Shown here one piece after another: positions 51,307-59,001 of a stretch of DNA of 64,000 bases. Origin of the DNA: an uncultured Actinomycetes bacterium (lineage in GTDB: Bacteria; Actinomycetota; Thermoleophilia; UBA2241); NCBI GenBank assembly GCA_963709345.1, contig CAVPVX010000001.1:288001-352000 (forward strand), in the 5' to 3' direction. How positions within the stretch are numbered: position 1 is the stretch's first letter; each line of letters starts with the position of its first letter. Below the pieces are notes generated by a model that was given only the letters and a program-made list of their open reading frames with translations, ran no database searches and was not told where the DNA came from. The position numbers and the translations under genes are program-made.

Positions 51307-52740
51307 TCAGATCGCGGAGGACGCCTCCACGCGCGTCGCCTGGTCGGCGAGAGCCTCGCCCAAGAGCGTCTCGAGCCCGGCGTTCTGCTCGGCTGTGAGC
51401 ATGAAACCGCGCACATCAGCGAGGAGGCCGGCGAGACGCGAGCGGACGCGGTCGCCGAGCGTCGTGGCACCGTCGGCCGCCCAACGATCGTGCCCCGCGT
51501 GGTCGAGCAGCGACGGCGTCCAGAACTCCCGGTGGTGCCTGCGCGTGTACCTGGTCGCAAGGTGATTGCCGCCGGGTCCGGCGGCCTTGATCTCGTCCAT
51601 GGCGAGCGCGTATTCATCCACCGAGACCTCCCGCATGAACTGGCGCGCGTAGCCCACGAGCTCGTCGCCGAGGACGATCGACTCGTAGGAGCTCTGCAGC
51701 CCCGACTCAAGGTAGCCGACGTCGTGCAGCAGCGTCGCGCGGGAGAGCGAGCCGTAGGCCATGCTCAGTGCGGCCTCGGCGCTCCACTGCTCGTCCAGGA
51801 TCTTCGAGTCTGACATGCCTGCGTACGAGAAGCTCGGCAATCCGTAGTGGCGAGCCATATCCGTGCCGACCTGCTGGGCCAGCAGCGCATCGGGCGCGAC
51901 GTACGGATCGGTCATGGTGCGCATGTCCATAGCGCCGGCGCCGACACCGTAGACGAACGGCGCCCCCGCCTTCACGGACTGCTGCAGCACCAGACCACTG
52001 AGGGTCTCGGCGTTGCCGACGAGCATCGCCGCCGTGATGCTCCGCGGGCAGGTGGCGCCCATGTTGGGGGCCGGCGCGTAGATCAGGGGGATGAGGAGAT
52101 CGGCGCAGCCGATCACCTTGGTCAGCGCGTCCGCGTCGTGCATCAGCGGCGGCGACGGCATCGCGTAGATGCCGAAGCTCTCCTTCTCGCCGCAGAGCGC
52201 CGCCATCTCCTGCATACGAGCGAGGACGCTGCCGTCGCGCGGCGCCACGAGCAGCGGCTTGCGGGTGCCGCGCAGCATCGCGACCACCTGGACGAGGTCG
52301 TCGATCTCCCGAGGGGCGTCCTCGGGCAGACCCATGCTCATGACGAAGTCGATGTTGGGGAGCTTCTCGCAGAGCGTCGCCATGCCCTCGACATCCGCAC
52401 GACGGACGCGGCGACGCTCGCGGGTGTCGGGGTCGCAGACGTAGAGCACATCGGAACCTGTGCCGAAGTAGACCTCGCCGTCACGAAGGATGAGCGGCTC
52501 AGTGTCGCCGCCTCGTGGCTTCAGCAGCCACTCGCGCGGCGCCGTGCGAAGCGCCTCGTCGACGAGCCGCGCGGGGATGCGGACCCGACGACCGTCGACC
52601 TCGGCGCCGGCGGCGCGAAAGCGCTCGAGCGCGGGCTCGTGACGAACGTCGACACCGACACCCGCGAGCAGCTCAAGAGTGGCCTCGTGCAGGCGACGGC
52701 ACTCGGCCTCGCTCCAGAGCGTGAGTACTGCCTTCGACAT
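51307..52740 (-). CDS. Trimethylamine methyltransferase (MttB) superfamily protein, non-pyrrolysine
   Basis: LHEATLELL..VGV, GAT.P.S..A....NAE.LSG, GAPFVYG, DSK..DEQ, HDVGYLESGL, GPGGNHL; no in-frame TAG. Confidence 0.92.
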   Translation of the reverse strand: MSKAVLTLWSEAECRRLHEATLELLAGVGVDVRHEPALERFRAAGAEVDGRRVRIPARLVDEALRTAPREWLLKPRGGDTEPLILRDGEVYFGTGSDVLYVCDPDTRERRRVRRADVEGMATLCEKLPNIDFVMSMGLPEDAPREIDDLVQVVAMLRGTRKPLLVAPRDGSVLARMQEMAALCGEKESFGIYAMPSPPLMHDADALTKVIGCADLLIPLIYAPAPNMGATCPRSITAAMLVGNAETLSGLVLQQSVKAGAPFVYGVGAGAMDMRTMTDPYVAPDALLAQQVGTDMARHYGLPSFSYAGMSDSKILDEQWSAEAALSMAYGSLSRATLLHDVGYLESGLQSSYESIVLGDELVGYARQFMREVSVDEYALAMDEIKAAGPGGNHLATRYTRRHHREFWTPSLLDHAGHDRWAADGATTLGDRVRSRLAGLLADVRGFMLTAEQNAGLETLLGEALADQATRVEASSAI

Positions 52741-52894
52741 GCCGCGGCTCCTCTCGCCTTCCTGACTGAGGAGTCAACCTATCACGAGCACGAAATGGTA
52801 TGTCAAGCAGGTATGTGGCAATGCTACTCTTCACAAGTGAACGCAGAACAATGTAAGATGCGCCAAGTAACCTCTCTCGCCGACAGGGGGTCGC

Positions 52895-53980
52895 ATGGAT
52901 GGAAGTGCCTCGAAGACGCCGGCTCGCGGAGAGCCGGTCTTCGCGCCGTTCGGTGACGACAACGCCTGTATCGAATGGCTCTGGGCCACCCTGTATGCGC
53001 CCGACGGCGCCAGCACCGTCTGCCGCCGCTGCCGTACCGTGCGCCGCTTTCACCGCGTCTCGCGCCGGCGTGCATACGCCTGCGACCACTGCGGCACGCA
53101 GGTGTATCCCACAGCCGGCACGTTCATGCAGGGCTCCGGCCTGAGCGTCGCCACGTGGTTCACCGCGGCGACGCTCGTCGCCGGCAGCGAAGGCGGTATT
53201 GCCCCGCGCGTCCTCACCGACGAACTCGGCGTGAGCTACAAGACGGCGCTGCGCATGAAGCGGAAACTGGAGGATGCCGCGGCGGGCAGCCCCGACGCCT
53301 CACTGCTCGAACGCTTGTGGCGGGACGCCGGCGGCTCCGGCGGGACCTTCGCGGCCGGCGCGCCCGCTCGCGACCGGTCGTCGCGCGCCCGAGAGAACAT
53401 CCGCGCCGCGGCCTGCCGCGCCTTCGCGGCGCGTGGCCCGTCGGCGACCCGGATCGCGGACATCGCCCGGGAGGCCGGCGTGTCGAGCGCGATCATCCAC
53501 TACTACTACAAGTCCAAGGATGAGGTGCTCCTCGCCGCCCTGCAGTGGGCCAACGAGCACACGAGCCGCCGCCTGGAGAAGCTGCGCGAAGAGACAGACG
53601 ATCCTGTGGAGCTGTTGCGTCTGACGATCGACCTCGCCGTGCCCACCGAGGGCGTGCTGCGCGACGAGTACCTGCTGTGGATCGAGACGTGGGCGCGCGT
53701 GCGGCTGCACCCCAAGCTCCTGGCCGAGTGTGTGGCCATGTCGGCGCGCTGGACAGGCTTCTTCCGGGAGCTCGTCGAGGAGGGCGAGGCGGCCGGGGTG
53801 TTCGACCCCATTGCCCCGGCCGCCGAAATCGCCGAGCGCGTGGTCGCACTCTCGGACGGCCTCAGCTTCCGCTCTGCGATCGGCTACACCGCCATGCACG
53901 AGCAGCGAGTCCGGGAACTGCTCGTGAGCTTCGCAGCCGAACAGCTTCGCGTGCCGGCCGCCGAGCTGGTGCGCCGCTGA
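52895..53980 (+). CDS. TetR (BetI-like) regulator fused to an IS1595-transposase-like zinc-ribbon/HTH N-terminus
   Basis: F.DD.AC..WL...CRRC...YACDHC..Q...TAGT....S.L....WF.A..L...GI...L..ELGVSYKTA.RM..K, then TRIADIAREAGVSSAIIHYYYKSKDEVL. Confidence 0.85.
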   Translation: MDGSASKTPARGEPVFAPFGDDNACIEWLWATLYAPDGASTVCRRCRTVRRFHRVSRRRAYACDHCGTQVYPTAGTFMQGSGLSVATWFTAATLVAGSEGGIAPRVLTDELGVSYKTALRMKRKLEDAAAGSPDASLLERLWRDAGGSGGTFAAGAPARDRSSRARENIRAAACRAFAARGPSATRIADIAREAGVSSAIIHYYYKSKDEVLLAALQWANEHTSRRLEKLREETDDPVELLRLTIDLAVPTEGVLRDEYLLWIETWARVRLHPKLLAECVAMSARWTGFFRELVEEGEAAGVFDPIAPAAEIAERVVALSDGLSFRSAIGYTAMHEQRVRELLVSFAAEQLRVPAAELVRR

Positions 53981-54023
53981 CGGTCCGCCCCCGCAGTCGA
54001 TTATCCCTGTGGCCGGCTCGCCC

Positions 54024-54187
54024 TCAGCCGACCCCGAGGATCGTCTGACGGTGGCCACGGCCTCGATCGCGTCCTCGGCGTAGCCGTCGGCGCCGATCTC
54101 GTAGCCCTCCTGGGCGAGCCGCTCGACGTCCTCGGCCTCGCCGTCGATCACGGTCTGCTTCATCTGTGCGTAGAGCTCTTCGGACAC
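54024..54187 (-). pseudogene. Internally deleted corrinoid (MttC-like) protein gene
   Basis: RBS AAGGAGG; N-terminal MSEELYAQMKQTVIDGEAEDVERLAQEG joined directly to C-terminal IGADGYAEDAIEAV; no DxHxxG; terminal frameshift. Confidence 0.75.
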
Positions 54188-54472
54188 TGGGGATCCTCCT
54201 TACGACGCTTGGTCGCCGCGGGCGTCCGCAGGAGCGCGATGGCTTCTGTCTGGAGTCCCGGCGATAGGGGCTGGTCATCTGGCCCGTCAAGCAAGTACGC
54301 GAGTGAACCACCAACGCCAGGTACCTGAAGCAGCGGTGAGCGCAGCAGGGAGATCGGCGGACTACTTGTCTCTCAGGATGCGGCCGAAGACCTCAGACGC
54401 CACCGGGAATGGTGGCTCGCGGAACGTCGAACTGCGATGATGCCGAGAACGATCACAAGAAAGGACACCCGG

Positions 54473-55591
54473 ATGCCTGCCCTCTTCGATCAGACCCAGA
54501 TCGGCACGATGAGGCTTGCCAACCGCTTCGTCCGCTCCGCGACCTGGGAGGGCATGGCGACCGACGACGGATGCTCCACGCCCGAGCTTGACGCGTACGT
54601 CGCGAGGCTCGCCGAGGGAGGCGTCGGTCTGACCATCAGCAGCTACGCCTACGTGAGCCCCGAGGGCAGAGATGCACCGGGCCAGCTAGGCGTCTGCTCC
54701 GACGAGCACGTTCCCGGGCTGACGGCGATGGCGAGGGCGACACACGCGGTAGGTGGCAGGATCGCCCTCCAGCTCGCCCATGCCGGCTGCTTCGGCGAGC
54801 CGTCGCTCTCGGGGTTCGAGCCCGTGGGGCCGTCGTCACTCGAGACCCACGACGGACCGGTGGGACGTTCGCTGTCCGGAGCCGAGCTGGCCGAGCTGCC
54901 GGCAGCGTTCGCCGCCGCGGCCGAGCGAGCCCGGGCAGCCGGCTTCAACGCCGTACAAGTCCACGCGGCTCATGGCTACCTGCTCAGCCAGTTTCTCTCG
55001 CCGTACTTCAACCGGCGCACGGACGGCTACGGAGGTGGCTTCCAGCAGCGCACCCGGCTGCTGCTCGAGGTCGTCGCAGCGGTGCGCGACGCAGTCGGGA
55101 ACGATCACCCAGTACTCGTCAAGGTGAACGCCGAGGACTTCCTTCCCGGCGGCCTCTCGGCGGACGACATGCTGGAAGTCGCCGCCAGACTCGAAGCGGC
55201 CGGCGTCGACGCGATCGAACTGAGTGGCGGGACCGGCCTGGAGGAGGGGCTCAGCTTCTCCCGCATCGGCCGCCCCGCGGCCGGTGAACCCGAGGCCTAC
55301 TACGAGGACGCCGCGCGGCGATTCAAGGCCGAGATCGGCGTCCCGTTGATGCTCGTCGGCGGAATCCGCACCTTCGAGACCGCGGAGCGCCTCGTGGCGG
55401 AGGGCGCAACCGACTACATCGCCCTGTCGCGCCCCCTCATCCGCGAGCCGGGGCTCATCGCCCGCTGGCGCGCCGGGGACACGGCACCAGCCCGCTGCAT
55501 CTCGGACAACGGGTGCTTCGACGCACCCGACGAAGGCCGCGGCCTGTTCTGCCCGGTCGAGGAGCGCGAGGCGAGGCGCGCGAACGGGTGA
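54473..55591 (+). CDS. NADH:flavin oxidoreductase (Old Yellow Enzyme family)
   Basis: NRFVRSATWE, QLAHAG, HAAHGYLLSQFLSP..NRRTD.YGG, SRPLIREP, CISDNGC. Confidence 0.94.
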   Translation: MPALFDQTQIGTMRLANRFVRSATWEGMATDDGCSTPELDAYVARLAEGGVGLTISSYAYVSPEGRDAPGQLGVCSDEHVPGLTAMARATHAVGGRIALQLAHAGCFGEPSLSGFEPVGPSSLETHDGPVGRSLSGAELAELPAAFAAAAERARAAGFNAVQVHAAHGYLLSQFLSPYFNRRTDGYGGGFQQRTRLLLEVVAAVRDAVGNDHPVLVKVNAEDFLPGGLSADDMLEVAARLEAAGVDAIELSGGTGLEEGLSFSRIGRPAAGEPEAYYEDAARRFKAEIGVPLMLVGGIRTFETAERLVAEGATDYIALSRPLIREPGLIARWRAGDTAPARCISDNGCFDAPDEGRGLFCPVEEREARRANG

Positions 55592-55645: not shown

Positions 55646-56776
55646 TCAGCGCTCGCGCAGGAACCTGTCGAACGCCTCCAGGCCCGGCTCGAGGCCGAGC
55701 CGCCCAAGCCCGACGCGGAAGTGGTCCGTAGGGGTCTCGGCGATCTCCGAGTAGTAGATGCTCGCCGGCAGCACCAGGACGCCTTCCTTCATGAGGAGGT
55801 CGTGGCAGAACGCCTCGACGTCCCCGCCCTTGTACCGCGGGAAGCAGACGCACCCGCCGACCGGCGGCTGCCAGTCGAAGAGCTCCTCCCAGCGGGCAAA
55901 GAAGTCGTCGAAGAGCGGCCGGTTGGCGGCGATGACCCCCCGGTTGCGCTCCCAGATCCGTTCGCGGTTGCGGAGCGCGAGCGCCGTCAGATACTCCGTC
56001 GGTCCCGCGTTGCAGATCGTCGTGTAGTGCTTGCGCTTCTCCAGCCGCTCCAGCAATCCCCGGTCGCGACAGGCCAGCCAGCCGATGCGCAATCCCGGCA
56101 GTCCGTAGGACTTGGAGGCCACGTTGAGTGAGACGGCGGTCTCAGACAGGTCCGCGGCCTGCGAGATGGTCCGCGCGGGGTCGAACTCGATGCCGCGGTA
56201 GACCTCGTCGCAGAACAGGCGGATGCCGCGCGCCTCGCACATCGCGGCGAGCTCGCAGAAGACGGCCTCGTCGGGAACGTGGCCGGTCGGGTTGTTCGGG
56301 AAGTTGACGGCGACCAGCTTCGTGCTCGGACGCAGCAGGCCGCGCAGATCATCGAGGTCGAGGGCCCAGCCGTTCTCACGGCGCATGACCAGAGGGCTGA
56401 CATCCGCACCTGTCGCAAGGGGCACGGTCTCCATCGACTGGTAGCAGGGCACCGTGACGACGGCGTGGTCACCGGGCCCGACGAGCTCCTGCATCGCCCA
56501 GAAGAGAGCCTCCTGAGCGCCGGTGAAGGCGAGCACGTGCTCCGCCTCCACGCGCTCGTAGGTGCCGGCGACTGCCTCGCGCAGGTTCTCGCTGCCCCAC
56601 GAGTCGATGTACGTGAGCGGCATCCGCATGAAGCCTTCGCGGTCGGCGTCGCTACCCATGGCAAGGAGCTCCTCGAGGGTGATGCTCTCGGCGTCGGATG
56701 CGGTGAGGTGATGCCGAACCGTGAGCTCCCACTTGCCGAGGAACTCTTCGAGACGGAACGTGCGCAGCGGCTTCAT
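55646..56776 (-). CDS. PLP-dependent aminotransferase class I/II
   Basis: NFPNNPTG, DEVYRG, SKSYGLPGLRIGW. Confidence 0.94.
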   Translation of the reverse strand: MKPLRTFRLEEFLGKWELTVRHHLTASDAESITLEELLAMGSDADREGFMRMPLTYIDSWGSENLREAVAGTYERVEAEHVLAFTGAQEALFWAMQELVGPGDHAVVTVPCYQSMETVPLATGADVSPLVMRRENGWALDLDDLRGLLRPSTKLVAVNFPNNPTGHVPDEAVFCELAAMCEARGIRLFCDEVYRGIEFDPARTISQAADLSETAVSLNVASKSYGLPGLRIGWLACRDRGLLERLEKRKHYTTICNAGPTEYLTALALRNRERIWERNRGVIAANRPLFDDFFARWEELFDWQPPVGGCVCFPRYKGGDVEAFCHDLLMKEGVLVLPASIYYSEIAETPTDHFRVGLGRLGLEPGLEAFDRFLRER

Positions 56777-57390
56777 GAGCGTGCCTCCTTGAGCAAGGCG
56801 TAGACGGTGGTGCGGGACACGCCGAGGGCGCGACCGGCGTGAGCGGCGGCGTGGCGGGTGGCAAACAGGCCGCGCTCGTCCATGAGGCGGACGAGCGTCA
56901 AGCGCTGGTCACGGGTGAGGCGGTCACGACGGAGGCGGCGCGAGCGGCACTCCTCGTCGACCAGGAGGAGGATCTGCTCGCGCCAGTCGCGGTCAAAGAG
57001 CTCGGGCGGGCGCCCCTGGACTGCGGCAGCGAATCGCGTCAGCAGCTCTATGGTGCCGTCGAACGGCGAGCGGTCGAAGTCGATGCAGAGCAGACCGCGC
57101 TTGGCGCCCTTGGCGTTGTGCAGAACAACGCTTACGGAAGTGAGCGCGCGCCCGTCGGCCAGGACCTTCGGGTAGGGGCCGCTGACGCGTGCGCCATCCG
57201 AGTACTCGGGCAGCTCGTCGATCAAAGATCTGTCACCGACCCTGCGCTCGGAGATGGGGTTCCAGATGGCGGCGATGCGGCCACGGCGGATGTCGTGGAT
57301 GGCGACTTCGGCGTACGGATGGAGCAGCGCGACGACAGCCTCACAGACCGGCACATGCGGCTCAAGCCATGCGGGGTGACTTGGTCTCAT
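56773..57390 (-). CDS. YheO/DauR-like PAS-HTH transcriptional regulator
   Basis: LLHPYAEVAIHD, S.R.VGD.S, GLLCI.FD, LGVSRTTVYALL. Confidence 0.88.
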   Translation of the reverse strand: MRPSHPAWLEPHVPVCEAVVALLHPYAEVAIHDIRRGRIAAIWNPISERRVGDRSLIDELPEYSDGARVSGPYPKVLADGRALTSVSVVLHNAKGAKRGLLCIDFDRSPFDGTIELLTRFAAAVQGRPPELFDRDWREQILLLVDEECRSRRLRRDRLTRDQRLTLVRLMDERGLFATRHAAAHAGRALGVSRTTVYALLKEARS

Positions 57391-57426
57391 GGCCGAACAG
57401 TATGTCCGTTCCGAACAGTCTGTCAA
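57391..57426 (-). promoter_or_regulatory. Leaderless sigma70-type promoter with direct repeat
   Basis: TTGACA-N18-TACTGT-N6-ATG; CCGAACAGT repeated at 57393 and 57411. Confidence 0.6.
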
Positions 57427-57528
57427 CAAAGCGGATGGTCATGCCGTGTGCATCGGGCTTGACGCACGCGGCCGGGCGGTCCCGGAGGCGGGAATCGCCG
57501 CCGGCGTCGCCTACCCGGATGGTCCGTG

Positions 57529-59001
<1,473 letters not shown>

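What the first reader, a model, noticed from the sequence alone, without database searches (positions are those of the whole stretch)
52895..53980. TetR regulator fused to an apparently domesticated IS1595 transposase DNA-binding module, next to a methyltransferase system
Seen: residues ~18-128 carry CRRC and CDHC, 'QVYPTAGT', 'WF.A..L' and 'ELGVSYKTALRMKRKL'. A Gly/Ala linker follows, then a complete TetR HTH and BetI-like ligand domain in one uninterrupted frame. Established: this N-terminal pattern is the zinc-ribbon plus HTH of IS1595-family transposases, normally followed by a DDE catalytic domain. That domain is absent and I see no terminal inverted repeats. Inference: a transposase DNA-binding module was exapted into a regulator with two DNA-binding domains. 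It is divergent from mttB and convergent with a corrinoid gene, so it may be an amine-responsive regulator that bridges or loops two kinds of site. I do not know this architecture as a described family.
Basis: partly seen in the sequence, partly recalled or inferred. Interest (0 to 1): 0.85.

Follow-up and report, generated by a model that had tools for sequence, protein, structure and literature searches.

The report
TetR repressor with transposase-derived DNA-binding head
This gene encodes a conserved actinobacterial regulator in which the zinc-ribbon and helix-turn-helix head of an IS1595 transposase, without its cutting domain, is fused to a choline/betaine-type TetR repressor beside a methylamine-type methyltransferase gene.

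Summary
ORF 52895-53980(+) encodes 361 aa: an IS1595-type zinc ribbon plus HTH (residues ~18-131), a flexible linker, then TetR_N and TetR_C_6. The N-module matches a genuine IS1595 transposase (34% identity, E 6e-26). It has no DDE domain, no flanking inverted repeats and one copy in the genome. The fusion is not an assembly artefact. More than 100 full-length homologue clusters exist, in Thermoleophilia MAGs, eight Nonomuraea genomes and one Mycobacterium. The N-module is under purifying selection (dN/dS 0.13-0.27) with four invariant cysteines. The divergent mttB-family gene is conserved only in the Thermoleophilia-type clade. Nonomuraea and Mycobacterium have an MmgE/PrpD plus ABC-transporter operon there instead. 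The "convergent corrinoid gene" is a deletion remnant in this genome. The likely mechanism is a ligand-released TetR repressor acting on a TGAC-N6-GTCA palindrome at the mttB promoter, a palindrome shared with TetR-only relatives. The N-module probably reads a second site: the motif pair TGTCAAG...CAAGT is found upstream of fusions and not of TetR-only relatives. That assignment is inferred, not shown. I found no paper describing the architecture. It is a new variant of a known kind and of moderate interest.

The parts
52895..53980 (+). Fusion regulator gene, 361 aa: IS1595-type ZnR-HTH, linker, TetR_N, TetR_C_6
   Evidence: ORF. Pfam and NCBIfam. 185 homologues, the best 120 listed, most of them full length. 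AF2 model with pLDDT 84.5.
52955..53101 (+). Zinc ribbon (residues 21-69) with C43, C46, C63, C66
   Evidence: PF12760 E 8.2e-5. The four Cys are invariant in 20 of 20 and 13 of 13 aligned family members. The model has three strands at 40-63 with pLDDT above 90.
53138..53287 (+). Three-helix HTH of the IS1595 head (residues 82-131; helices 85-97, 104-111, 115-129)
   Evidence: NF033547 positions 3-53. BLASTP to the L090 transposase. Weak structural likeness to homeodomain-like HTHs, best Z 4.5.
53288..53389 (+). Linker (residues 132-165): a conserved short helix at 134-145, then a disordered Gly/Ala stretch at 147-160
   Evidence: pLDDT below 50 for residues 147-160 and pTM 0.55. This region has the highest dN/dS of the four regions, 0.23 and 0.34.
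53399..53539 (+). TetR_N HTH (residues 169-215)
   Evidence: PF00440 E 9.8e-14. dN/dS 0.026.
53603..53947 (+). BetI-type ligand-binding domain, TetR_C_6 (residues 237-351)
   Evidence: PF13977 E 1.8e-14. Foldseek to 4nel, 4ich, 4kwa and 4jnn: TM 0.89-0.90 on the target, 33-34% identity.
51307..52740 (-). Divergent non-pyrrolysine MttB-superfamily methyltransferase, 477 aa
   Evidence: PF06253 E 1.7e-74. TIGR02369 scores 285.6 bits, below its 525 cut-off. The best solved relative is the MtgB glycine betaine methyltransferase, E 5.6e-59.
52763..52776 (.). Palindrome TGACTGAGGAGTCA, the candidate TetR operator, over the inferred -10/start of the mttB promoter
   Evidence: Conserved block in the 25-locus intergenic alignment. 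The same kind of palindrome lies upstream of 11 of 16 TetR-only relatives.
52801..52813 (.). Conserved block TGTCAAGCAGGTA. Its reverse complement holds TTGACA, the inferred -35 of mttB.
   Evidence: The 13-mer pattern TGTCAAGCnnGTA occurs twice in the genome.
52830..52859 (+). Sigma-70-like promoter of the regulator gene: TTCACA, 18 nt, TAAGAT
   Evidence: It is the only promoter-like site found in 52600-54500, against 0.1 expected from shuffles. Both hexamers are conserved in the alignment.
52863..52870 (+). Conserved CCAAGTAA at about +1 of the regulator promoter, the second half of the TGTCAAG...CAAGT pair
   Evidence: The pair with this spacing occurs once in the whole genome.
54024..54187 (-). 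Remnant of a corrinoid-protein gene: about 28 N-terminal and 20 C-terminal codons remain, the B12-binding core is deleted, and a 1-nt frameshift lies near the end
   Evidence: Compared with the intact 216-aa gene in L018, which has B12-binding_2 plus B12-binding. The remnant has no Pfam hit.
54437..55591 (+). Old-yellow-enzyme-type flavin oxidoreductase downstream
   Evidence: PF00724 E 3.1e-56. An OYE-type gene also follows several TetR-only relatives.

Best explanation
The gene encodes a dimeric, small-molecule-responsive TetR/BetI-type repressor that has gained a second DNA-binding head. Shown: the head is the zinc-ribbon plus three-helix HTH of an IS1595-family transposase, without the DDE domain, joined by a flexible linker to a complete TetR. 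The fusion is a conserved, selected actinobacterial family, consistent with a single origin. Inferred: in this genome the TetR HTH binds the palindrome TGACTGAGGAGTCA (52763-52776), which overlaps the -10/start of the divergent mttB promoter. It represses mttB until a methylated amine (a quaternary amine such as a betaine or choline-like compound) occupies the BetI-type pocket. More tentatively inferred: the transposase-derived head reads asymmetric CAAG-type sites. These are TGTCAAG at the mttB -35 and CAAGTA at +1 of the regulator's own promoter, 58-60 bp apart. Reading them would add specificity or affinity and autoregulation, so the dimer clamps both divergent promoters.
For: Architecture and homology.

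Conservation: 185 homologues, the best 120 listed, most with over 90% coverage down to 35% identity. Full-length fusions occur in 41 fetched loci: Thermoleophilia and other actinobacterial MAGs, 8 Nonomuraea and 1 Mycobacterium. 13 of 24 same-genus genomes have a match. PF12760 hits 15 of 20 members, and TetR_N and TetR_C_6 hit 20 of 20.

Selection: C43, C46, C63, C66, W30, H53, R54, R58 and W88 are invariant. N-module dN/dS is 0.133 (136 pairs) and 0.269 (36 pairs), against 0.162 and 0.204 for the ligand domain.

Single origin not excluded: all 41 fusions lie on one side of a branch of the TetR-half tree, though support is only SH-aLRT 79.

Fold: both domains are confidently folded and the linker is disordered.

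Ligand class: the top structural and sequence matches are a S. viridis TetR whose entry titles name choline, benzamidine and an N,N-dimethyl compound. MttB is nearest to the glycine betaine methyltransferase MtgB.

Operators: the 25-locus alignment shows conserved blocks. TGAC-N5-7-GTCA is present upstream of 11 of 16 TetR-only relatives and 14 of 27 clade-A fusions. The pair TGTCAAG-N47-59-CAAGT is present in 25 of 27 clade A, 9 of 9 clade B (which has a different divergent operon) and 1 of 6 deep-branch fusions, but in 0 of 16 TetR-only and 0 of 4 HTH_28-TetR relatives. Background per 260-nt window is 0.4% for TGTCAAG and 7.5% for CAAGT. The pair occurs once in the genome. The regulator promoter was found by scan.
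Against: No binding, ligand or expression data exist. No RNA run was available.

The conserved TGTCAAG and TTCACA blocks coincide with -35 hexamers, and CAAGTA with the start site, so part of the conservation may be plain promoter sequence. The ~30/60-bp spacing follows from the geometry of back-to-back promoters.

Loci within a clade are kin, so the motif tallies amount to about two or three independent observations. 5 of 6 deep-branch fusions lack the pair.

The palindrome is degenerate in 13 of 27 clade-A loci and absent in 0 of 9 clade-B loci having it, meaning none of the nine carries it.

The N-module's only structural matches are weak (best Z 4.5; no Foldseek hit at E<=1e-3).

I could not derive IS1595 terminal-repeat sequences to compare with the motifs.

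The protein scores far below the BetI equivalog cut-offs (66.8 vs 201.3 bits), so the ligand is not established.

The corrinoid partner beside mttB is deleted here, so the locus may be partly decayed in this strain.
Confidence: 0.55

Rival explanations
1. The protein is an ordinary TetR repressor, and the transposase-derived head no longer binds specific DNA. It would serve instead as a zinc-dependent structural, redox- or metal-sensing, or protein-protein module, for example contacting RNA polymerase or another regulator. The conserved CAAG blocks would be only promoter elements.
For: TGTCAAG, TTCACA and CAAGTA coincide with the -35, -35 and +1 positions of the two divergent promoters. Four invariant Cys could equally serve a sensor role. 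The module is also found fused to non-DNA-binding partners such as NHL repeats and STAND NTPases. Structural matches for the HTH are weak.
Against: The HTH helices keep the residues that are nearly invariant across the 150 closest relatives, transposases included (LGV.YKTA.R). The TGTCAAG...CAAGT pair tracks the presence of the module across two clades with different target operons, and is absent from 20 of 20 relatives that lack the module. Purifying selection covers the HTH part, not only the Cys.
Confidence: 0.25
2. The head binds DNA but acts as a general affinity or anchoring device, or as an oligomerisation and bridging device that links distant sites such as other mttB paralogue promoters. 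It would not read the local CAAG motifs.
For: The genome holds about 47 MttB-family places and 17 corrinoid-protein places, so a wider regulon is conceivable. The flexible linker allows a long reach.
Against: The TGTCAAG-N47-59-CAAGT pair occurs only at this locus in the 3.11-Mb genome. CCAAGTAA occurs twice and TGTCAAGCnnGTA twice. Family members sit next to different operons in different lineages, each time with the local motif pair.
Confidence: 0.15
3. It is an artefact or a decaying mobile element: a frameshift or assembly join of a transposase fragment to a neighbouring TetR gene, or an IS1595 copy losing its DDE domain.
For: The Pfam zinc-ribbon score is just under the gathering threshold in this protein. 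The adjacent corrinoid gene shows that deletions have occurred at this locus.
Against: The same reading frame occurs in more than 100 independent clusters and in isolate genomes. Contigs from other runs bridge the junction: X2 covers 52600-53421 and X4 covers 53231-53822. dN/dS is well below 1. The gene is single copy with no terminal repeats. Its position beside mttB is syntenic in about 25 loci.
Confidence: 0.02

Closest known systems
BetI-type TetR-family repressors (Pfam TetR_N plus TetR_C_6), e.g. the Saccharomonospora viridis regulator of PDB 4KWA, 4NEL, 4JNN and 4ICH
   Same: Residues 163-346 align at 33-34% identity, E about 1e-23, TM 0.89-0.90. The HTH and nine-helix layout are the same. 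The gene sits divergently next to a catabolic gene. A palindromic site lies in the shared promoter region, as in TetR-only relatives.
   Different: It carries about 160 extra N-terminal residues forming a separate folded ZnR-HTH domain. It scores far below the BetI equivalog thresholds, so it is not BetI. The 4ICH chain is 311 aa with its TetR part starting near residue 110, but that N-terminus matched neither this module nor the HTH_28 module.
IS1595-family (ISXO2-like) transposases
   Same: The N-terminal zinc ribbon plus HTH is homologous: 34% identity to the L090 transposase, E 6e-26, with matches to PF12760 and NF033547. The residues nearly invariant in the head are kept.
   Different: It has no DDE_Tnp_IS1595 domain, no terminal inverted repeats, a single copy, a fixed syntenic position and purifying selection as part of a regulator.
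HTH_28/HTH_23/HTH_29-TetR fusions in the same TetR clade (L056, L064, L071, L073; seen here)
   Same: The BetI-like TetR half is the same (31-47% identity), an extra N-terminal transposase-type HTH is present (E 1e-11 to 1e-15), and a related palindrome lies upstream.
   Different: The head is of a different kind: homeodomain-like, of the sort I recall from IS630/IS3-type transposases, with no zinc ribbon. These fusions form a separate clade of the TetR tree and have no TGTCAAG...CAAGT pair.
Eukaryotic transcription factors built from domesticated transposase DNA-binding domains (e.g. THAP, BED, WRKY/GCM1-type; recalled from memory, not from a call)
   Same: The concept is the same: a transposase DNA-binding head kept without the catalytic domain and reused in host gene regulation.
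   Different: This case is bacterial, fused to a classical one-component ligand-sensing repressor, and derived from a prokaryotic IS family. All 13 papers returned by the domestication search were, by listing and abstract, about eukaryotes or general theory.

Membership tests
TetR family of transcriptional regulators | N-terminal TetR-type HTH (PF00440) scoring above the curated threshold | tested here: met
   51.3 bits against a 24-bit cut-off, residues 169-215.
TetR family of transcriptional regulators | All-helical C-terminal ligand-binding and dimerisation domain with the TetR fold | tested here: met
   TetR_C_6 scores 54.4 bits against a 27-bit cut-off. Foldseek gives TM 0.89-0.90 to 4nel, 4ich and 4kwa, E 5e-9.
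TetR family of transcriptional regulators | Ligand-relieved binding to a palindromic operator | not testable with these tools
   Only a candidate palindrome at 52763-52776, shared with TetR-only relatives.
BetI (choline-responsive repressor; NCBIfam TIGR03384 / NF001978 equivalogs) | Score above the equivalog cut-off | tested here: not met
   66.8 bits against 201.3, and 60.3 against 118. It is BetI-like in fold only.
IS1595-family transposase | N-terminal zinc ribbon (PF12760) plus HTH | tested here: met
   22.9 bits, below the 25.4 gathering score but E 8.2e-5. 15 of 20 family members hit at E<=1e-3. BLASTP to a bona fide transposase gives E 6e-26. NF033547 matches positions 3-53.
IS1595-family transposase | DDE catalytic domain (PF12762) | tested here: not met
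   No hit in the window protein or in any of the 20 aligned members. The TetR half occupies that position.
IS1595-family transposase | Terminal inverted repeats flanking the gene, and multiple copies or mobility | tested here: not met
   None of the 23 inverted-repeat pairs has arms flanking the gene in the intergenic DNA. The genome holds one copy. The gene keeps a syntenic position across about 25 loci.
MttB superfamily (neighbouring gene) | MTTB domain; pyrrolysine (in-frame TAG) for true trimethylamine methyltransferases | tested here: met
   PF06253 E 1.7e-74. There is no in-frame stop, the score is below the TIGR02369 cut-off, and the nearest solved relative is MtgB. It is a non-Pyl member of unknown substrate.

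The most novel reading that the evidence does not exclude
Actinobacteria have repeatedly domesticated transposase DNA-binding heads into one-component regulators. One BetI-like TetR clade exists in three forms: plain, with an IS1595 ZnR-HTH head, and with an IS630/IS3-like HTH head. The IS1595 head is also joined to STAND NTPase/LuxR-type and NHL-repeat proteins. In the TetR fusion, the two kinds of DNA-binding domain would read a composite operator, a TetR palindrome plus asymmetric CAAG sites about 30 and 60 bp apart, and so clamp both divergent promoters. This would be a bacterial counterpart of eukaryotic transposase-derived transcription factors.
Probability: 0.35. Interest if true: 0.7.

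Novelty: new variant of a known kind. Interest (0 to 1): 0.55.

Why it matters
Reuse of transposase DNA-binding domains as host transcription factors is well documented in eukaryotes. The papers I could search hardly describe it for bacteria. This is a clean, widespread and selected bacterial example, and culturable hosts (Nonomuraea, Mycobacterium sp.) carry it, so it can be tested directly. It offers a natural TetR with two different DNA-binding domains on one chain. That is of interest for how operator specificity evolves and for building synthetic repressors with composite operators. It may also help identify the substrates of the large, mostly uncharacterised non-pyrrolysine MttB superfamily, because the regulator's ligand should be related to the substrate of the neighbouring enzyme.

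Tried and rejected
Terminal repeats of IS1595 elements. I fetched 18 actinobacterial IS1595-type transposase loci and searched 16 of them plus L090 for terminal inverted repeats, to compare with the CAAG motifs. No convincing repeats were found, so the comparison could not be made.

Structural searches for the N-module. Foldseek against PDB gave no match at E<=1e-3. VIA-align wide gave a best Z of 4.5, to homeodomain-like HTHs over residues 79-133, and nothing at Z>=5. The PDB sequence profile search gave only chance-level zinc-ribbon hits, E>=0.13.

N-module tree (160 rows, 120 columns, FastTree). It is too poorly resolved to show whether the fusion heads nest inside transposases. The TetR-fusion label needs 5 changes, partly because truncated or frameshifted fusion fragments were classed as 'other'.

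Direction of transfer. Transposase to regulator is therefore argued only from distribution.

Sequencing runs. No RNA holder was listed. The laid runs are contigs only. No contig bridges the corrinoid deletion joint near 54100-54104, so the deletion is not independently confirmed for this strain. Relatives' contigs show loose ends at 54099-54104.

Rfam. No hit in 52500-54500 at E<=1, so there is no known riboswitch in the leaders.

Genome-wide motif scan. Other TGACT-N4-5-RGTCA sites (C4:250369, C7:351878) lie next to unrelated genes and were not pursued.

Literature. Searches 'IS1595'+'TetR' (149 papers; the 15 listed were all co-mentions in resistance or IS surveys), 'Zn_Tnp_IS1595' (1 paper, on eukaryotic Merlin transposons), 'domesticated transposase'+'transcription factor'+'bacteria'+'DNA-binding domain' (13 papers), 'TetR family'+'zinc ribbon'+'fusion' (1 unrelated paper) and 'MttB'+'TetR' (496 papers). 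In the two papers I opened by passages (PMC8604678 and PMC12155760), the 'TetR' hits were the word tetrahydrofolate. Supplements are closed and were not seen.

My own slip. In one search the panel entry 'FUS_TetR' was cut one base out of frame. I ignore that column; the TetR half was re-cut correctly.

Not used. Complex prediction and the protein-atlas search, because TetR dimerisation would pass by likeness to solved structures and would not bear on the open question.
Full report
**What is there.** The window has an uninterrupted 361-codon ORF at 52895..53980 on the plus strand.
- Pfam finds TetR_N (residues 169-215, E 9.8e-14), TetR_C_6 (237-351, E 1.8e-14) and Zn_ribbon_IS1595 (21-69, E 8.2e-5; 22.9 bits, just under the 25.4-bit gathering score).
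- NCBIfam's IS1595 transposase model matches residues 82-131 to its first 53 of 215 positions (E 1.6e-5). The BetI equivalogs match far below their cut-offs.
- A direct BLASTP of residues 1-135 against a genuine 303-aa IS1595 transposase gives 34% identity over 118 residues, E 6e-26. The match covers both the zinc ribbon and the HTH. That transposase came from a deltaproteobacterial MAG (L090) and carries PF12762 DDE at E 9e-37.
- There is no DDE domain and no inverted-repeat pair flanking the gene. The genome holds no second copy (3.11 Mb, 11 contigs, 98% complete).

**It is a conserved family, not an accident of this assembly.**
- The word-indexed protein search returned 185 homologues. Of the 120 listed, most cover over 90% of the query at 35-84% identity. 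Many carry PF12760 in the precomputed annotation, and JGI names several 'AcrR family transcriptional regulator/transposase-like protein'.
- In genome collections the full-length fusion is found in 41 fetched loci: Thermoleophilia and other actinobacterial MAGs, eight Nonomuraea genomes and Mycobacterium sp. 21AC1. It is also in 13 of 24 genomes of the window's own genus.
- Of 20 aligned members, 20 hit TetR_N, 20 hit TetR_C_6 and 15 hit PF12760 at E<=1e-3.
- Contigs from other public runs bridge the module junction: X2 covers 52600-53421 and X4 covers 53231-53822. They are 90-95% alike, so they come from relatives.
- The four cysteines and W30, H53, R54, R58 and W88 are invariant.
- Pairwise Nei-Gojobori dN/dS values, from my own script, are below. 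Pairs are not independent, and GC-rich codon bias may distort dS.

| Region | Thermoleophilia-type (17 sequences, 136 pairs) | Nonomuraea/Mycobacterium (9 sequences, 36 pairs) |
|---|---|---|
| N-module | 0.133 | 0.269 |
| Linker | 0.233 | 0.337 |
| TetR HTH | 0.026 | 0.081 |
| Ligand-binding domain | 0.162 | 0.204 |

- On a tree of the TetR half (76 rows), all 41 fusions lie on one side of a branch. This is consistent with one fusion event, but support is weak (SH-aLRT 79). The Mycobacterium copy nests inside Nonomuraea.

**Structure.** AlphaFold2 with the family alignment gives mean pLDDT 84.5 but pTM 0.55.
- The model has two confident domains joined by a disordered stretch (residues 147-160, pLDDT below 50).
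- The N-module alone folds with pLDDT 85.3 and pTM 0.73. It has a helix (22-33), a three-stranded zinc ribbon (40-63) and three helices (85-97, 104-111, 115-129).
- The TetR half matches a Saccharomonospora viridis TetR (4NEL, 4ICH, 4KWA, 4JNN) at TM 0.89-0.90 and 33-34% identity. The entry titles name choline, benzamidine and an N,N-dimethyl compound as ligands.
- The N-module has no solved counterpart. Foldseek finds nothing at E<=1e-3. The wide structural search gives only weak likeness (best Z 4.5) of residues 79-133 to homeodomain-like HTHs.

- The divergent gene (51307..52740, minus strand) is a non-pyrrolysine MttB-superfamily methyltransferase. It has PF06253 at E 1.7e-74, no in-frame stop, and scores below the trimethylamine equivalog cut-off. 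Its nearest solved relative is the glycine betaine enzyme MtgB.
- By tblastn, an MttB homologue starts 150-280 bp upstream and divergent in the Thermoleophilia-type loci. 25 such intergenic regions were aligned.
- None lies within 10 kb in the eight Nonomuraea loci or the Mycobacterium locus. In the two of those nine loci that I scanned, the divergent operon encodes an SBP_bac_3 binding protein and a fused ABC permease-ATPase (L040, L054) plus an MmgE/PrpD protein (scanned in L054).
- One deep-branch locus (L053) has a clostripain-type peptidase upstream. The mttB link is therefore clade-specific.
- Downstream, related loci carry an intact convergent 216-aa corrinoid protein (B12-binding_2 plus B12-binding). 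In this window only 164 nt remain (54024-54187). About 28 N-terminal and 20 C-terminal codons are joined in frame, with one further base missing near the end. The remnant has no Pfam hit.
- A copy 90% identical to the L018 corrinoid protein lies elsewhere in the genome, next to another MttB paralogue (C10:58382-59029).
- No other methyltransferase-system gene is adjacent. The neighbours are an OYE flavoprotein, an aminotransferase, a YheO-type regulator, a beta-eliminating lyase and an arginase-family enzyme, followed further out by fatty-acid synthesis genes.

**Candidate DNA sites.** An alignment of 25 mttB-regulator intergenic regions shows four conserved blocks:
- TGACT-N5-GTCA: window 52763-52776, a perfect palindrome TGACTGAGGAGTCA.
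- TGTCAAGCAnGTA: 52801-52813.
- TTCACAAGT: 52830-52838.
- GTA..ATG.GCCAAGTA: ending at 52870.

The promoter scan finds one sigma-70-like site in 52600-54500 (0.1 expected from shuffles): TTCACA, 18 nt, TAAGAT. This puts CCAAGTAA at about +1 of the regulator gene. Read on the other strand, TGTCAA is TTGACA, a likely -35 for mttB. The palindrome would then overlap its -10 and start, which is my inference.

Two comparisons help to assign the sites.
- The closest TetR-only relatives (about 215-240 aa, 41-49% identical in the TetR half, with a near-identical HTH) carry TGACTGAC-N3-GTCAGTCA upstream. TGAC-N5-7-GTCA is present in 11 of 16 of them and in 14 of 27 clade-A fusions, but in 0 of 9 Nonomuraea/Mycobacterium fusions.
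- The pair TGTCAAG-N47-59-CAAGT tracks the fusion. The counts:

| Group | Loci with the pair |
|---|---|
| Clade-A fusions | 25 of 27 |
| Nonomuraea/Mycobacterium fusions (different operon, ~45% protein identity) | 9 of 9 |
| Deep-branch fusions | 1 of 6 |
| TetR-only relatives | 0 of 16 |
| HTH_28-TetR relatives | 0 of 4 |

Random 260-nt windows of this genome contain TGTCAAG in 0.4% and CAAGT in 7.5% of cases. The pair occurs once in the genome, at this locus. This correlation is the basis for proposing that the transposase-derived head reads CAAG-type sites.

The caveats are real. The blocks coincide with promoter elements. The spacing follows from back-to-back promoter geometry. The loci are kin, so they amount to perhaps two or three independent observations. 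Most deep-branch fusions lack the pair.

**Wider pattern.** A profile of the N-module finds 11,636 cluster representatives at E<=1e-3, 2,070 at E<=1e-10 and 65 at E<=1e-30.
- Among the best 150, Pfam finds PF12760 in 109, TetR_N in 27 and the DDE domain in 23.
- Many of the short 'other' proteins are truncated transposases that still show the start of the DDE domain. An iterative search raised the DDE count to 51 of 160 rows, a set that includes added transposases.
- Real alternative fusions exist, to NHL repeats (P0166, P0170) and to STAND NTPase/LuxR-type regulators (P0211, P0216, P0173, P0169, P0259).
- Four relatives of the same TetR clade (L056, L064, L071, L073) carry a different N-terminal head: HTH_28/HTH_23/HTH_29/HTH_32, E 1e-11 to 1e-15. 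From memory, I know this type from IS630/IS3-type transposases.

This BetI-like TetR clade therefore exists plain and with two different transposase-type heads.

**Mechanism and confidence.**
- Shown: the architecture, its homology to both parents, its conservation, selection and distribution, and the presence of two classes of conserved sites.
- Inferred from established TetR biology: a dimeric repressor bound to the palindrome over the mttB promoter, released by a small ligand. The structural neighbours and the MtgB-like enzyme point to a methylated or quaternary amine, but the ligand is not identified.
- Inferred more weakly: the N-module binds the CAAG sites at the mttB -35 and at the regulator's +1, adding specificity and autoregulation.

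I put 0.55 on this whole picture, about 0.95 on 'real conserved fusion regulator', and about 0.5 on sequence-specific DNA binding by the head.

**Novelty.** The five literature searches listed under Tried and rejected found nothing on this fusion. Papers behind paywalls and supplements were not searchable. Databases already auto-annotate the two halves. I rate it a new variant of a known kind, a TetR regulator with a domesticated transposase head, and of moderate interest.

Noticed in passing
window 54024-54187 (- strand): Remnant of a corrinoid-protein gene. An in-frame internal deletion of about 162 codons removes the B12-binding core, and one base is missing near the end. Related loci (e.g. 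L018 11192-11842) have the intact 216-aa gene. A 90%-identical copy lies at G000 C10:58382-59029, next to another MttB paralogue.
   Followed up: partly
whole genome G000: The genome holds very many methyltransferase paralogues for its 3.1 Mb. tblastn with the window's MttB gives matches at about 47 places, several split into two pieces. The L018 corrinoid protein matches at 17 places. Clusters lie on C10, C1 (434-454 kb), C8, C9, C11 and C2.
   Followed up: no
L056 9818-10801, L064 9689-10615, L071 8738-9742, L073 9524-10663: A second kind of fusion occurs in the same BetI-like TetR clade. An N-terminal HTH_28/HTH_23/HTH_29/HTH_32 head (transposase-type, homeodomain-like) is joined to TetR_N and TetR_C_6. 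A TAACTGA-N7-CAGTCA-type palindrome lies upstream.
   Followed up: partly
proteins P0166, P0170, P0211, P0216, P0173, P0169, P0259: The IS1595-type ZnR-HTH head is also fused to NHL-repeat proteins and to large STAND NTPase/LuxR-type regulators. In P0259 it sits at the C-terminus.
   Followed up: no
L054 (Mycobacterium sp. 21AC1) versus the Nonomuraea loci L040-L052: The Mycobacterium fusion gene nests inside the Nonomuraea clade. It shares the divergent MmgE/PrpD, SBP_bac_3 and ABC operon and nearly the same intergenic sequence. This suggests horizontal transfer of the whole cassette.
   Followed up: no
PDB 4ICH: The deposited chain is 311 aa and its TetR part begins near residue 110. The shorter constructs (4KWA, 4JNN, 4NEL) lack this N-terminus. 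It matched neither the IS1595 head profile nor the L064 HTH_28 head, so its nature is unknown to me.
   Followed up: partly
L094-L110: IS1595-type transposase genes with a DDE domain were found in 17 of 301 sampled genomes of the phylum (two of the 17 genomes are flagged unpublished). There is one match per genome in 16 of the 17. I detected no clear terminal inverted repeats in the 16 loci examined, and three contain in-frame stops. Some may be immobile or decaying.
   Followed up: no
window 56773-57429 and 57529-58995 (- strand): A YheO-type PAS_6 plus HTH_22 regulator lies next to a beta-eliminating lyase (tryptophanase or tyrosine phenol-lyase type) and a class I/II aminotransferase. This trio is syntenic with the regulator locus in many Thermoleophilia-type loci.
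   Followed up: no
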